NCBI GenBank assembly: GCA_963796055.1
Contig: CAWCKH010000002.1
Span: 128,001-192,000, forward strand
DNA length: 64,000 bases
DNA from: an uncultured delta proteobacterium
Lineage (GTDB): Bacteria > Myxococcota > Myxococcia > Myxococcales > Myxococcaceae
Direction: 5' to 3'
In this document: piece by piece, positions 33,001 to 42,000 of the stretch
Layout of the letters: each line of letters starts with the position of its first letter
Numbering within the stretch: position 1 is the stretch's first letter
Position numbers: made by a program

Positions 33001-36000
33001 GCCTCTTGCCACCCTCCCCCACCGGGGATATCCAGTCCCGCCTCGAGGAGGATCGATGACCCCGCCGGATCACCGCCAGGCAGTCGCCCGGACCCGCGAG
33101 ATCGCCGAGGCGACGATCTCCCCTGCAGCACACGAGCTCGACAGGGCAGGGAGCTTCCCCGCCGCCGCCGTTGCCGCGCTCGGAGAGGCCGGACTGCTGG
33201 CCCTCAACGTCCCCACCAGCTTCGGTGGGTCCGGCCTCGGCCCACGCGCCTTCGCGGAGGTCAACGCCATCCTCGCCGAGGCGGACCCGTCGGTGGCGAT
33301 GGTGTACATGATGCACGTCTGCGCCAGCGAGGTGGTCGTCGCCGGCGCCAGGACGACCCGGAGCCCGGTCTTTGAGACGGCGCTCGCGGACATGGCCCGA
33401 GGCAAGCACCTGACCACCCTGGCCTTCAGCGAGGCCGGGTCGCGGAGTCATTTCTGGGCGCCCCTCTCCAGGGCCTCCCGTGGCGCGGGCGGCGTTCGGC
33501 TGAACGCCAAGAAGTCCTGGGTCACCAGCGCCGGAGTCGCAGACAGCTACGTGGTCACGACCCTCTCGCCCGAGGCGAAGGGCCCCACGGACTCGACGCT
33601 GTACCTCGTGCCGAAGTCCGCGACCGGGATGCGCGTCACCGCGCCATGGGACGGCCTGGGGCTGCGCGCGACCGCATCGTCTCCCATGACCCTCGAGGCG
33701 GTGGAGGTGAGCGACGACCGCCGGCTCACCGAGGAGGGCGGTGGCTTCGCCGCCAAGCTGAACGTCGTCCTGCCCTGGTTCAATCTGGCCAGCGCCACCG
33801 TTTCGCTCGGAATCTGCAGGGCGGTGGTGGCAGCGACCGTCACTCATCTGAAGACGAGCAAGTTCGAGCATCTGGGCAACACCTCGCTCGGCGAGGCGCT
33901 TCCCACGCTGCGCCAGATGCTGGCCCAGATGCAGATCGACACCGACGGCCTCGCGCACCGGATCGACGAGTGCGTACGCGCGCTCGAGAGCCCTGGCCCG
34001 GAGACGATGCTTCGCGTCCTGGAGGTGAAGGCCGCTGCCGGGGAGACCGCGATCCGGGTGACCTCCAGCGCGATGCACGCCTGCGGTGGCGCTGCCTTCT
34101 CCAGGCACACCTCCATCGAGCGCTACTTTCGCGATGCCCACGCCGGCTCGGTCATGGCGCCAACCGTGGACGTCCTGCGCGAGTTCATCGGCAAGTCGCT
34201 CCTCGGCATCCCGCTGTTCTGAACACGCTGCCCATGCTCGAGACCATCACCGTCGGCGCCGTGGCGTACGATCCGAAGGTCGTCGGGATCTGGGAGGGCA
34301 TGCGGAAGTACTTCCGCGATGACGCCAGGATCCCGGTCGAGGTCGTGCTGTACCTAAGTTACGAGGCACAGGTCGCCGCGCTGCTTGCTGGGCGCATCGA
34401 CATCGCCTGGAACACCAACCTCGCCTATCTGCAGTGCGACCACCTCAGCCGGGGGGCGTGCAACCCACTGGCAATGCGGGACACCGACCTCGCGTGGTGG
34501 ACCGAAATCGTGGTTCGCACCGGGGCCGGCATCGGCCAGCTGTCGGACCTCCGCGGAAAGCGGGTTGCGCTCGGGAGCCGTGACAGCGGGCACGCAGCGA
34601 TACTTCCGGTCCACTTCCTCGCCCAGGCAGGGCTGGTCGAGGGCCGGGACTACCAGTCGCTCCGCTTCGACACCGACCTCGGGAAGCATGGAGACACCGG
34701 GACGAGCGAGGTCGACGTGCTCAGGGCCGTCCTCAGCGGCGAGGCCGATGCGGGCGCGGTGGGCAGCCCCTTCTGGGCGGGCGTCCACTCGGGTCAGCTG
34801 GTCCCGACCGGAGCCGTCAAGTCCATCTGGTCGTCTCCGCACTACCACCACTGCATGTTCACCGCTCGGGTCGGGCTTCCTACCGAGGACGCGACGCGCT
34901 TCACCGACGCACTCTTCGGGATGAACGGCGTGCCGCGGCTGCGGCCCATCCTCGATGCCGAGGGGCTCAAGGAGTGGGTGCCCCCGCGCACCGAGGGGTA
35001 CGGCTCGCTCCGCGAGGCGGCGCTCCGGCAAGGCTTCTTCGCACGGTCGGGCTGAATGGGATCCCAGCACCGGGCGGTCGAGGTTCGAGCGGGCGCGAAG
35101 GATTTTTCCACCGGCCTGCTGAATGACCTGCTCGCTGCGTTCCAGGGCCTCGCCGACGGCGACCTCCTCACGCTGCACGGCCCTGGTCGTCTCGGACCCG
35201 ACCTCGACCGCTGGGCTCGCTTCACCGGGAACGCCATCGTCGAGGTGAGCGCCGAAGGCGAGACGAGCCGATTCCTCCTCCGCAAGGGCGCGCCGCGCTC
35301 GTACGAGGAGGCGCCGGTCATCGGTTCGCGACTCTGGCTCTACTCCAACTTCGACTGCAACCTCGCCTGTGACTACTGCTGTGTGCGCTCCTCCCCGCGG
35401 GCAGAACCCAGGGCGCTCTCGCTCGAGGACGTCCAGCGCGCAGCCGCCGAGGCGCCCGGTGCCGGGGTCCGGGAGCTCTTCGTCACTGGCGGCGAGCCGT
35501 TTCTCCGGTCGGACATCGCCGAGGTGCTCCTGGCCTGTGCGCGGGCTCTCCCGACGACCGTGCTGACCAACGGGCTTCTCTTTGCCGGAAGGCGCCGGAT
35601 TGCCCTCCGCGAGATCCCGCGCGACCGCATCGTCTTGCAGATCAGCCTCGACAGCCCCACCCCCGCACTCCACGACCGGCATCGCGGAGAGGGAACCTGG
35701 GAGAAGACCCGGGCCGGGATCGCCATCGCCCGCGAGGAAGGATTCCGCGTCCGGCTGGCCGCGACCGTCGCTGACGCTCAGGCCGAGCAGGCGTTCCGGG
35801 CGTTCGTCGAGAGAGAGGGCATCGTCGAGGAAGACTGCGTTCTGCGTCGCGTCGCGCTGCGGGGCTTCGCCGAGGAGGGGGTGGCCCTGTCGCGGTCGGA
35901 CCTGGTGCCGGAGGTGACGCTCACCCGGGCAGGCATCTACTGGCACCCGGTCGGGGCGACGGATCAGGACTTCTTCGTCACCGCGCGGTCCTTCCCGCTC

Positions 36001-39000: not shown

Positions 39001-42000
39001 CGGTCGCCGCCGGGCTGGCGGTCGCGGTCTGGGCACGCCGCCGGCTCTCGCTGGCGTCGCCTCAGGCGTGGGCATGGCCGATGGCGGCGACGCTCCTGGG
39101 TGCGCCGCTGGTGTACCCCTGGTACCTCGTCTGGCTCGCGCCGTTTCTCGTCACGCCGCAGACCATGCCGCTGACGATCTGGACGATCTCGATCCTCGGC
39201 ACCTACGTCGTCTGGAAGCTCGTCGGCGTCCCCTGGGCGGTGCCGGCCTGGGCACTCGTGGTCGAGTACGGAGCGCTGCTCGGAGCTGCTCTGTGGCTGT
39301 GGCGAAGAACAGGCCGGCTCACTTCGCCTCCATCCAGGCATCTGACCCCGCCAGCTTGACCGCCACGTTCGAGAGGGATTCCGTGAACGGGTGGCCGTCG
39401 GCCTTTCCGCGGTGCTGGGTCGAGACAAGCAAGGGTCCGGCCTTCTTGTAGCCCTCCCAGGTCGCCAGGACCACGCTCGGCTTCGCCGTTCCCCCGTGGT
39501 GAAATTCGAGCTCGTGAATCCGGTTGTCGGGAGCGGCGAAGATCGCCCAAGTGTCACCCGGCAAGTAGCCGCCGCTGGACGGATACTTCACCACGACCTT
39601 CCTGGCCTTGCCCTTCCCAAGCGGCAGCTTCTGCATGCCGGCATCCTCGATGGTCGCGCCGGTATCCCAGATGAGATGGAACGGAAACAGCAGCCAGTAC
39701 TGATCGTTGAAGAACCCGGGATCGACCATCTCCTTCACGAACGCGCTCTGGCTCGCAAGCTGCGAGCGCGAATACGTGATCTTGACGGGCTTGCCGGCAT
39801 TGTCTGGCCCGTCGTAGGTGATCGTGTCGGTCTTCGGCTCCCAGATCCACGAGCGGTGGAGCTTCAGCTTGCCCGCATCGAGGGTGAACGTGTAGCGGAT
39901 CGCCTCGACTTGATCCCACGCATCGATCCCGTAGGTCTTGGCAATCTGGTCGGCGATCGGCGGGCGCTGCTGCGCCGACGCAGGTGGTACGAGACAAAGC
40001 ACTCCGATCAACAGCGCACCGATCACCGAAACGCTGCTCGCTTTCATCCTCGGTACCCTCCTGGACGACTCGGGAAAAGGTCCTTCGCCATTCACATCAC
40101 TGCCTGCACAACTCTCGAGCACCATCTCTCCCCAGCAGGCGTCATCCTGTACACACTCGGCTGCGTCATGGCAGACGATCCAGGCACGCGACTCGAGCGA
40201 TTCCCTCTAGCAGTAGGATTTCCTGCCTGGCACGCGCGTGCTCTACGTTCCGCGCGTCGGAAACGAGGCGGCCAGATGAAAGCGGCGCGAAGAATCGCGG
40301 CAGCGGTGCTGGTGGTCGGAAGCAGCGTGGCGGCAGCGGCAACGCGGCCGAGCTCGGCACGTACGTCGTCGAAAGAGGGAATTCACTCGTCGCGATCGTC
40401 AAGTGAGCGCCCAGTGAGGTGACCCTGGTCGTCGCCGCGGCCGTCTCTTCAGTGCTCGTCGCGTTGAGTTGGCCCTTGCCACGAGGCGGCCGACCCGGCA
40501 ACCCTGCATCCCGGATGTCCTATCTCCGAGACGAGCCCGACTTCGACTTTCGTGTCCTCCTGCGGGGGCCTCGCCACAGCGAGCTGCTCGTGACGGGGCG
40601 GGAGGGCCGCTGGAAGCTGCCTCGCTTCGTCTCCGGCGAGCAGCACACGTCGGAGGTGGTGTTCGTCAACCGGACTGTCCGTCAGAGCCTGGGTCTCGAG
40701 GCGACCGTGCTCCGGTGCCTCTGGACCGACTTCGACGAGCCGCAAAACGTGGTGCGCATGCTCTATGTGCTGGAAGCGCACGGCGTGGGCTGGACACCGA
40801 GTGCCGTCGGCGGGGCCTGGTTGCCCGCCGATGTCTTGGTGCGCGACGGAGCCGAGGATCGCGACGTCGCCGCCGTCGTGGAAGCCTGGGCACGCGAATC
40901 GACGGACCGCCCGGTCATCCCGGACGGCCAGGAGTGGTTCGCTCCAGGCTGGTGGGACCGAATGCTAGGCTGGGCCCGCGAGCGGCTGCACCCCGTCCAC
41001 GTCGGCGCGGCCGAGCAGCTGCGGTCGTCGGAGTCTTCCTGCGTGGTGCGCCTGGAGACCGAGGAGGGAGCCGCCTTCGTGAAGGCAGTGGCGGCGAGCC
41101 TCGCGCGCGAGGTGGCGGTGACGGCCCGGCTGTCCCGCGTCCCCGCCAGCGCGGTCCCCCCGGTCCTCGCGGTGGATGTGCCGCAGCGCTGGATGCTCCT
41201 GCGCGGCGCGGCGGGGCGTCCCCTCGGCGACACCGGGGACCTCGCTGTCTGGGAGCGAGCGGCCGCTGCGTACGGACGCTTCCAGCTCGCTGCGGCCTCG
41301 AGCGTCGACGCGCTCGCCGGGGTGGGCTGCCCCACGTTGACCGCGGGGCAGCTGCAGGAGGACGTCCTCGAGGTCCTTGCCAGCGATGAAGCGATGCAGG
41401 CCGGGAGACCGGGCGGACTGGAGCCCGAGCAGGTGTCGCGTCTCAGGACGTTGAAGCCGCAGCTCCTGGCTGCAACCACCTCGCTCCACTCGAGCGCCCT
41501 GCCGGTCAGCGTCGATCACGAGGATCTCTGGCCCGAGAACGTGTTCTCCGCAGAGGACGGGTGCCAGGTCGTGGACTGGGAGGACGCCCGGATTGCCCAT
41601 CCCTTCCTGAGCCTCTTTCCGCTGCTCGCCGGTGCCCGCATGCAGAACACCTTTGCGGACCATGCCGCCGCGAGCGCCCGCATCCGGGACGCTTATCTGG
41701 AGGGCTTCGCGCGCTTCGCTCCCGCCGAAGCGCTGCGCCAGTTGTTCGGCGCGGCCCATGACCTGGCCGCGGTACGAATGGCCGCGACCTATCTGCGCGC
41801 GTCCCCGGCTATCCAGCGCGCCCATCCCTGGATGCGCGAGATGCCTGCGTTTTGCCTGCGGGCGCTGCTGGAGCGCCGGGACGGTGTGGAGGGCCCGTGA
41901 TCCAGGCGGGACCGGTGGAGCGCGAGGAGGAGCTGGAGCAGATCCTTTTCCTGCAGCGCGCGAATCTCCCTCGGCAGCTGAGCCCGGAGGAGATCGCGGC

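What a model noticed while it worked through the whole genome (the two positions that open the first line are those of the whole stretch)
33056..40047. MtxS-like lipid-sugar genes and the Rv1679-81-like radical SAM module form one cluster
g00485-g00492 join an acyl-CoA dehydrogenase, an Rv1680-family binding-protein-like gene and an Rv1681-family radical SAM enzyme with a DoxX protein, a GT2 most like Rv0539 (MtxS), a DUF2064 nucleotidyltransferase-like gene and a GT-C transferase. The same set recurs in rearranged order in Acidobacteria, Alphaproteobacteria and others, which ties two loci that lie apart in mycobacteria into one pathway, probably for a modified lipid-linked sugar.
Evidence so far: NCBIfam Rv1681 and Rv1680 over cut-off; g00489 41.7% to Rv0539; GT87 weak on g00491. 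Of 80 loci of the radical SAM gene, 50 were near full length: GT-C in 44, binding protein 43, acyl-CoA dehydrogenase 42, DUF2064 42, GT2 37, g00492 36, DoxX 31, in several gene orders. PMC12088412 passages name Rv0539 as MtxS. Searches 113, 116, 119, 120 found no link between the loci.
(Added by a program. Inside this text positions count along the whole contig: contig position 128,001 is position 1 of the stretch shown here. "Call 12" and the like, gene names such as g00115 and contig names such as C1 are that model's own, and its searches are not shown. The text may have been shortened before it was handed on; [...] marks where a part breaks off. The agent that wrote the report below was given it as the finding of a first reader that could run no searches.)

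Follow-up and report, generated by a model that had tools for sequence, protein, structure and literature searches.

The report
Radical-enzyme module feeding envelope sugar attachment
Eight neighbouring genes combine an unstudied radical-enzyme module, known by name from the tuberculosis genome, with a lipid-carrier system that most likely attaches an unusual sugar to the cell envelope; the pairing recurs in several bacterial phyla, but each half also occurs without the other and no product is known.

Summary
The cluster is real: seven tightly packed genes plus one convergent gene. The link recurs: of 41 radical SAM loci of at least 20 kb, 39 have the GT-C and 38 DUF2064, in 8 gene orders and five phyla; one database protein fuses the binding-protein-like domain to DUF2064. 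Corrections: only the Rv1681 and TIGR04282 models pass cut-off, Rv1680 does not. The link runs one way: the GT-C family is in 109 of 301 genomes of one phylum draw, Rv1681 over cut-off in 3. The closest relative lacking the module has another radical SAM gene, and a Mycolicibacterium plasmid has the module without sugar genes. So Rv1678-81 is one exchangeable plug-in of an MTX-like transfer core. The flavoprotein lacks the catalytic glutamate; the binding protein lacks a signal peptide and has an invariant pocket cysteine. Best guess (0.4): the module supplies a heteroatom-substituted, SAM-derived pentose. Rv0539-41c sequences were not obtainable, so the mycobacterial claim is untested. The scan noted this theme before on other DNA.

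The parts
33056..34222 (+). Rv1679 (FadE16)-like flavoprotein of the acyl-CoA dehydrogenase fold, 388 aa, without either catalytic glutamate; probably an oxygenase or lyase
   Evidence: NF049984 406.9 bits, cut-off 600; VMAPT replaces IYEGT and P240/N243 replace the D..R pair in alignments with solved enzymes; M86, H87, P240, V366-T370 invariant in 24 of 24
34234..35055 (+). Rv1680-like PtxB/PhnD-fold protein, 273 aa, no signal peptide, invariant His206-Cys207 (Cys codon 34852-34854) at the capping position of the oxyanion pocket
   Evidence: NF049985 309.7, cut-off 400; model pLDDT 89, best fold matches ArrX Z 24.2, PtxB Z 23.1; C207 aligns to PtxB Y203; H206 and C207 in 91 of 91 rows, hydrophobic leader in 1 of 84
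35056..36087 (+). Rv1681-family radical SAM enzyme, 343 aa: TusA-fold N-terminal domain without its cysteine, CxxxCxxC core, no SPASM domain, C-terminal FxCA
   Evidence: NF049973 414.2, cut-off 380; TusA match Z 10.8, rmsd 2.5, 74 residues; core closest to SkfB Z 20.4, SuiB and BlsE Z 18.8, viperin Z 18.5; FxCA end in 80 of 80 loci
36133..36615 (+). DoxX-family membrane protein, distant counterpart of the N-terminal part of Rv1678
   Evidence: PF07681 27.9, cut-off 23.6; a profile of 8 cluster DoxX proteins hits both this protein (E 2.9e-9) and the Rv1678-family protein of L086 (E 5.9e-22); direct BLAST of the two finds nothing
36612..37340 (+). GT2 of the polyprenyl-phosphate sugar synthase type (MtxS-like), 242 aa
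   Evidence: PF00535; best NCBIfam AglJ 132.6, below cut-off; 44.4% to the GT2 of the MTA-phosphorylase cluster L088 against 36.9% or less for unlinked paralogs in the genome; cluster GT2s group together, support 92/93
37337..38059 (+). DUF2064 / TIGR04282 protein, CofC-like nucleotidyltransferase fold, 240 aa; single copy in the genome
   Evidence: TIGR04282 139.2, cut-off 134; CofC E 5e-14; PDB 3cgx E 4.9e-10; P-x-x-G-x-x-K-T-R-L and D-x-D invariant in 21 of 21; 1 match in the genome
38073..39359 (+). GT-C membrane transferase (MtxT-like), 428 aa; alternative GTG start at 38061
   Evidence: GT87 21.5, cut-off 25; D86, R89, Y90, W92, D93 invariant in 25 of 25; 30% over 148 aa, E 5e-15, to the GT-C of L088
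39319..40047 (-). g00492: exported protein, 242 aa, with a signal-peptide-like N-terminus; lead for a LolA-like lipid carrier or for the acceptor
   Evidence: No Pfam or NCBIfam hit; nearest named Atlas cluster is a lipoprotein-sorting family, score 0.96, DUF6503 on 25% of members; in 46 of 62 core loci with Rv1681 and 0 of 14 without

Best explanation
An MTX-like sugar-transfer core with an exchangeable precursor module. Architecture (about 0.8): DUF2064 activates a sugar phosphate as a nucleotide sugar, the GT2 moves it to a polyprenyl phosphate, and the GT-C attaches it outside the cytoplasm to an envelope glycan, lipid or protein; DoxX is the membrane redox partner and g00492 carries or receives the product. 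Chemistry (inferred, about 0.4): the cytoplasmic trio makes the sugar's special group. The PtxB-fold protein holds a small sulfur (less likely selenium or arsenic) species on Cys207, the glutamate-less flavoprotein sets its oxidation state, and the radical SAM enzyme joins the 5'-deoxyadenosyl radical to it, as ArsS does with arsenic. The genome's unlinked MTA phosphorylase then releases a 5-substituted ribose 1-phosphate for DUF2064. Shown: gene content, linkage, homologies, residues. Inferred: every reaction, the element, the acceptor.
For: Linkage 39 of 41, 8 orders; whole set in Miltoncostaea found through the GT-C; 4 of 4 further over-cut-off Rv1681 copies from phylum draws have DUF2064 within 3.2 kb (two are kin, some may also be among the 80); SBP-DUF2064 fusion P0158; a same-genus genome joins a 78-85% identical trio to a different lineage of sugar genes, 45-46%. 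The core is homologous to a cluster with MTA phosphorylase over cut-off and an epimerase. The closest trio-less relative has another radical SAM gene where g00492 stands, and 7 of 14 trio-less core loci have some other radical SAM gene. MTA phosphorylase is in the genome (44%) and in 5 of 5 cluster genomes tested. Sulfur or thiol hints: TusA fold, C-terminal Cys or an adjacent CxxC CMD gene (22 of 27), DoxD hit, SfnB and desulfinase as best non-self families of the flavoprotein, invariant Cys207. ArsS adenosylation: PMC13598754 passages.
Against: No product or activity is known. The enzyme is not an ArsS relative beyond the superfamily (TIGR04167 44-47 bits against 300 for two family members). 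The sulfur hints are weak: TusA domain has lost its Cys in this clade and SfnB is only a few orders of E-value above ordinary dehydrogenases. MTA phosphorylase is common and was linked in 0 of 62 loci with Rv1681. The flavoprotein/binding-protein pair occurs with a TusA-ferritin-like gene and no sugar genes in 7 of 12 matching genomes of the own-phylum draw, and in the second radical SAM clade the pair is adjacent in only 2 of 27 short loci. P0158 is one sequence on 4 contigs and could be a lost stop codon.
Confidence: 0.4

Rival explanations
1. The radical SAM enzyme and the flavoprotein tailor an already activated (nucleotide- or lipid-linked) sugar, in the manner of BlsE, viperin and the nitrososynthases.
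For: BlsE Z 18.8 and viperin Z 18.5, rmsd 2.8, are among the top four fold matches; KijD3-type and nitrososynthase chains match the flavoprotein profile at E 1e-25 to 1e-30 (3m9v as KijD3 is recalled); DUF2064-Nudix fusions show nucleotide-sugar handling.
Against: An epimerase (3) or a second radical SAM gene (8) occurs alongside Rv1681 in 11 of 62 loci, so it is not the epimerase substitute; ordinary dehydrogenases outrank nitrososynthases; no role for the binding protein; the pair also occurs without sugar genes.
Confidence: 0.2
2. The sugar is ordinary methylthiopentose made with the genome's unlinked MTA phosphorylase and epimerase; the Rv1678-81 genes keep it or the envelope reduced, in place of the MsrPQ-like pair.
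For: Molybdo-enzyme genes in 5 of 14 core loci without Rv1681 and 0 of 62 with; DoxX in 54 of 62. Unlinked epimerase 43% like that of L088 in the genome. The plasmid copy sits among CMD, deiodinase-like, glutaredoxin and Dsb/CcdA genes; the divergent regulator Cmr is a redox sensor in M. tuberculosis (PMC5499769 passages).
Against: DoxX alone could explain the exclusion; cytoplasmic enzymes cannot reach an exported sugar; swapping with another radical SAM gene points to synthesis.
Confidence: 0.18
3. The binding-protein-like chain is the substrate: the TusA-tagged radical SAM (or, in the sister module, a di-iron enzyme) matures Cys207 into a catalytic residue, and the matured enzyme makes the sugar phosphate.
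For: Cys207 in 91 of 91 rows; radical SAM and ferritin-like enzymes alternate behind the same TusA-like domain, like anaerobic and aerobic maturases; peptide-modifying SkfB is the best fold match.
Against: No SPASM domain, which sulfatase maturases need (recalled); in clade 2 the radical SAM gene is often apart from the binding protein.
Confidence: 0.1
4. Two independent stress modules that travel together without sharing a pathway.
For: Each half occurs alone; the cluster is rare and patchy, 3 of 201 and 3 of 301 over cut-off.
Against: 8 orders with interleaved genes (L089), a cross-module fusion, repeated pairing with separate lineages, one tightly packed run here.
Confidence: 0.1

Closest known systems
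Methylthioxylose (MTX) capping of M. tuberculosis lipoarabinomannan: MtxS (Rv0539), MtxT (Rv0541c)
   Same: GT2 makes a lipid-linked sugar and a membrane transferase attaches it (PMC12088412, PMC8780516 passages). The window's GT2, DUF2064 and GT-C match a Kitasatospora cluster with MTA phosphorylase and epimerase at 44%, 31% and 30%; that this five-gene set is the Rv0535-41c set is recalled from Angala 2017, which was not held.
   Different: No MTA phosphorylase or epimerase in the cluster; adds the Rv1678-81-like genes and g00492; host is not an actinomycete and presumably has no LAM; direct comparison with Rv0539-41c not possible.
NCBIfam Rv1678-Rv1681 families (NF049986, NF049984, NF049985, NF049973), function unknown
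   Same: Same order flavoprotein-binding protein-radical SAM; 49%, 48% and 46% identity to over-cut-off members on a Mycolicibacterium plasmid.
   Different: Only the radical SAM passes cut-off here; linked to sugar-transfer genes, whereas the plasmid copy lies among thiol-redox genes.
Arsenosugar pathway (ArsS, ArsM, TIGR04282/TIGR04283)
   Same: TIGR04282 protein beside a radical SAM enzyme; model for radical adenosylation (PMC13598754 passages).
   Different: Radical SAM is not ArsS; no ArsM; GT2 scores 48.6 against 182 for TIGR04283; has a GT-C.
DszC/DszB desulfurisation pair (recalled)
   Same: A flavin oxygenase of the acyl-CoA dehydrogenase fold working with a cysteine enzyme of the binding-protein fold; DszB appears in the fold list at Z 12.2, DszC at E 4e-18.
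   Different: Both matches are distant; the cysteine lies elsewhere in the fold; no catabolic context.

Membership tests
Rv1681-family radical SAM (NF049973) | Score at or above 380; CxxxCxxC motif | tested here: met
   414.2; C101, C105, C108
Rv1680-family SBP-like (NF049985) | Score at or above 400 | tested here: not met
   309.7; best family by far, 47.8% to a member scoring 495.3
Rv1679-family (NF049984) | Score at or above 600 | tested here: not met
   406.9; 48.8% to a member scoring 631.1
Rv1678 family (NF049986, C-terminal model) | Score at or above 50 | tested here: not met
   No NCBIfam hit; only transitive N-terminal homology
True acyl-CoA dehydrogenase | Catalytic glutamate at the MCAD or IVD position | tested here: not met
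   A368 and F242/W241 region, no Glu in 24 of 24; roles of the positions recalled
ABC-transporter phosphite/phosphonate binding protein | PtxB/PhnD fold | tested here: met
   Z 23.1, rmsd 4.4, 251 residues to PtxB
ABC-transporter phosphite/phosphonate binding protein | Export signal, STS-H motif with capping Tyr, neighbouring permease and ATPase | tested here: not met
   No leader in 83 of 84; S-G-H, H152 and C207 replace S-T-S, H155 and Y203; no transporter genes in the operon
MTX pathway | GT2, DUF2064 and GT-C homologous to those of an MTA-phosphorylase/epimerase cluster | tested here: met
   Stand-in L088:
MTX pathway | MTA phosphorylase and epimerase in the cluster | tested here: not met
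   Both unlinked, on contig C3; in-cluster 0 and 3 of 62 loci
MTX pathway | Orthology to Rv0539, Rv0540, Rv0541c themselves | not testable with these tools
   No M. tuberculosis sequence was obtainable (one search gave no mycobacterial genome set)
MTX pathway | Product is methylthioxylose on a lipoglycan | not testable with these tools
   Needs chemistry
Arsenosugar pathway | ArsS (TIGR04167 at or above 300) and TIGR04283 GT2 | tested here: not met
   ArsS not among the best 25 of 52 families for this protein, 44-47 bits for two relatives; TIGR04283 48.6 against 182
Arsenosugar pathway | TIGR04282 protein | tested here: met
   139.2 against 134
Selenoprotein radical SAM | In-frame UGA read as selenocysteine at the C-terminus | tested here: not met
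   All 80 end FxCA; the stop is TAA or TAG in 15 of 80

The most novel reading that the evidence does not exclude
DUF2064/GT2/GT-C is a general route for putting SAM-derived 5-substituted pentoses on bacterial envelopes, with plug-in modules that choose the substituent; Rv1678-81 is the plug-in that loads sulfur (or selenium) from a cysteine-bearing binding-protein fold by radical adenosylation, giving a new thio-, sulfinyl- or selenosugar, and the orphan M. tuberculosis genes feed or diversify the MTX cap.
Probability: 0.2. Interest if true: 0.85.

Novelty: new variant of a known kind. Interest (0 to 1): 0.58.

Why it matters
PMC12088412 calls MTX the only known bacterial thiosugar, reported from three mycobacterial species. 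A homologous transfer core with exchangeable radical SAM modules across phyla implies a wider class of unusual envelope sugars. The linkage also gives a first testable context for an orphan radical SAM family, a glutamate-less flavoprotein and a signal-less binding protein that databases name as MoeX-like, acyl-CoA dehydrogenase and ABC transporter parts; residue evidence says the last two names are wrong. Cultured carriers exist (Bradyrhizobium, Miltoncostaea).

Tried and rejected
Literature: no paper holds two of Rv1679/80/81; one search was swamped by unrelated 'MTXs'; 3 listed papers hold two MTX terms; none holds three of Rv0535, galE3, Rv0536, Rv0540, MTX, lipoarabinomannan; DUF2064/TIGR04282 terms give 2 listed papers, neither on this cluster as far as seen (listing, passage); listings showed no link. 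Subscription papers and supplements were not searched, so absence from print is not shown. Angala 2017 was not held. Arsenic reading rejected as membership. Selenocysteine at the radical SAM C-terminus rejected, though two loci lie beside sel genes. Transporter reading rejected. Promoter/terminator scan: 0 and 2 sites, at shuffle level. No RNA holder was listed. One search is circular (the alignment holds the target) and was replaced. One search covered the wrong length range and found 1 protein. Apparent SBP-flavoprotein and SBP-TusA-ferritin fusions (P0151-P0153, P0160, P0164, P0167) contain out-of-frame stretches and were treated as neighbouring genes, not fusions. No mycobacterial genome set could be reached.

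
Full report
Observation. All eight genes are intact. Seven run on the + strand with gaps of 11, 0, 45, -4, -4 and 13 bases, so one transcript is likely (inference; the promoter scan is at shuffle level). g00492 is convergent and overlaps the GT-C end by 41 bases. The closest radical SAM relatives, 82-93% identical, are in Myxococcota or 'delta proteobacterium' records.

Linkage, starting from the radical SAM gene. The scan kept the best 80 of 278 loci. Of the 41 of at least 20 kb: GT-C 39, DUF2064 38, flavoprotein 37, binding protein 37, GT2 37, DoxX 33, g00492 32. 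46 of 80 hold all six core genes, in 8 orders. Phyla: Myxococcota, Acidobacteriota, Pseudomonadota, Verrucomicrobiota and Actinomycetota (Miltoncostaea plasmid, found through the GT-C, where the sugar genes lie between the radical SAM and the flavoprotein). In phylum draws the family is rare: over cut-off in 3 of 201 and 3 of 301 genomes, each count including the centre genome (only 7-10 candidates a genome were scored). The 4 further over-cut-off copies all have DUF2064 within 3.2 kb; a fifth, below cut-off, does not. A second clade without TusA domain, 61 metagenome loci, has in its 27 loci of at least 5 kb CMD 22, DoxX 18, DUF2064 9, GT2 8, flavoprotein 2, binding protein 2 (most are short). 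P0158 joins an Rv1680-type domain to a DUF2064 over cut-off in one frame; it is one sequence on 4 contigs. Trees of 35 DUF2064 and 37 GT2 rows, from 34 loci that I chose, place trio-linked copies on several lineages among trio-less ones (deep forks are weak). A same-genus genome couples a 78-85% identical trio to sugar genes only 45-46% like the window's.

Linkage, starting from the other genes, tells against an obligate pathway. The GT-C family is in 109 of 301, 47 of 201 and 9 of 301 genomes of three draws (the first tally, like, includes 3 genomes flagged unpublished, the last 1). Of 40 regions that I picked from these hits, half from the top scores, 13 had DUF2064 and 2 of those the trio. 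The closest trio-less relative (DoxX 77%, GT2 81%, DUF2064 67%, GT-C 69%, genome 100% complete) has no trio ortholog in the genome (best E 5e-22 and 9e-34) but a different radical SAM gene where g00492 stands. Over all fetched loci with DUF2064 and GT-C: with Rv1681 (62, kin and perhaps repeats included) DoxX 54, g00492 46, second radical SAM 8, epimerase 3, molybdo-enzyme 0, MTA phosphorylase 0; without (14) DoxX 3, g00492 0, other radical SAM 7, epimerase 3, molybdo-enzyme 5. The binding protein matched 12 of 201 own-phylum genomes: 3 with the trio, 7 with flavoprotein plus a TusA-ferritin-like gene and no sugar genes in 3.7-20 kb, 1 beside selA/selD-like genes, 1 weak and not fetched. A Mycolicibacterium plasmid carries over-cut-off Rv1678, Rv1679, Rv1680 and Rv1681 members among Crp-type, CMD, deiodinase-like, glutaredoxin and Dsb genes, with no sugar genes in 24.9 kb.

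The sugar core. A Kitasatospora plasmid cluster holds MTA phosphorylase (over cut-off), an epimerase, GT2, DUF2064, GT-C, a methyltransferase and molybdo-enzyme genes. The window's GT2, DUF2064 and GT-C match it at 44%, 31% and 30%; unlinked GT2 paralogs reach 36.9%. Passages name Rv0539 as MtxS, maker of the lipid donor, and Rv0541c as MtxT (PMC12088412; PMC8780516; PMC8081860). The rest of the MTX route is recalled. DUF2064 keeps a CofC-like nucleotide-binding motif, so nucleotidyltransferase fits better than its 'glycosyltransferase' label. DUF2064 is found fused to GT-C, GT2, Nudix and a second radical SAM type. The genome has unlinked MTA phosphorylase (44%) and epimerase (43%) homologs.

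The module. The flavoprotein keeps the fold but has VMAPT where dehydrogenases have IYEGT, and lacks the D..R pair (24 of 24); it is unlikely to dehydrogenate an acyl-CoA (inference from recalled roles). The binding protein has the PtxB/ArrX fold and no leader in 83 of 84. PtxB's STS-H motif (PMC5700983 passages) becomes S118-G119-H120 and H152, and C207 aligns to Y203, which I take from the alignment to be the capping tyrosine that faces the ligand's fourth substituent; H206 and C207 are invariant in 91 of 91 rows. The radical SAM model (pLDDT 90) has a TusA fold at residues 4-78 and a core closest to SkfB, SuiB, BlsE and viperin, no SPASM cysteines and a C-terminal FxCA. DoxX is a distant counterpart of Rv1678 and travels with either half. 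g00492 is exported-looking, with a lipoprotein-sorting family as a lead only.

Reading. The core is MTX-like in how it works, not a member of the MTX pathway. The Rv1678-81-like genes are one of several exchangeable partners. I rate the shared lipid-carrier pathway at about 0.8 and the specific chemistry, ArsS-like adenosylation of a cysteine-held sulfur species (model: PMC13598754 passages), at 0.4; rivals are sugar tailoring 0.2, redox upkeep of a methylthiopentose 0.18, maturation of Cys207 0.1, mere co-travel 0.1. In M. tuberculosis the upstream regulator Cmr is a redox sensor that activates rv1676 (PMC5499769 passages), which suits the redox rival; whether the two loci interact there is open.

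Novelty. My searches found no paper on the linkage (listings only except where passages are named; no supplements read, and supplementary gene tables could bear on this). The scan has noted the same trio with DUF2064, and the radical SAM plus MTX-like core theme, on other DNA (unchecked notes, not counted as support). Class: new variant of a known kind; interest 0.58.

Noticed in passing
L194, L196-L201 (own-phylum genomes); P0153, P0160, P0167: Sister module: the same flavoprotein and binding-protein-like genes followed by a TusA-like domain fused to a ferritin-like (ExxH) domain in place of the radical SAM enzyme, without sugar genes.
   Followed up: partly
P0161, P0162: The Rv1680-type domain, with its His-Cys, fused to a flavin-containing monooxygenase in two eukaryote-like proteins, in opposite domain orders.
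   Followed up: no
L089:1768-5901 and L195:4324-6904: Two unrelated loci with the binding protein lie beside selenocysteine-pathway genes; L195 has an OsmC-like and a MetE-like gene instead of the radical SAM (names from sequence recall).
   Followed up: partly
L152:10613-11680, L154:12653-13735, L024: A further uncharacterised radical SAM/SPASM family accompanies DoxX-type sugar cores; no NCBIfam cut-off reached.
   Followed up: partly
L089:10824-12008, P0197, P0199: DUF2064 fused to a NudE-like Nudix hydrolase in several lineages.
   Followed up: no
P0038; L205:9773-11300: Rv1681-like radical SAM fused to, or beside, a metallophosphoesterase.
   Followed up: no
L206-L212, L171, L185: GT-C and GT2 of this family recur with DUF547 genes in Alphaproteobacteria and Acidobacteriota.
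   Followed up: no
L203:7419-8240: The binding-protein gene is in two frames in this genome, an assembly error or a broken gene.
   Followed up: no
window 32053-32979 +: DUF5765 membrane protein 76 bases upstream of the cluster on the same strand; found in 0 of 80 related loci.
   Followed up: partly
window 23065-25364 +: Two overlapping ORFs in different frames that read like one frameshifted gene for an exported enzyme.
   Followed up: no
window 25877-29197 -: 1106-aa ORF with a patatin-like N-terminus (motif recalled) and a possible beta-barrel end.
   Followed up: no
window 40419-42475 +: 493-aa ORF with a weak kinase-like match followed by a GNAT acetyltransferase; not among the recurring neighbours.
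   Followed up: no
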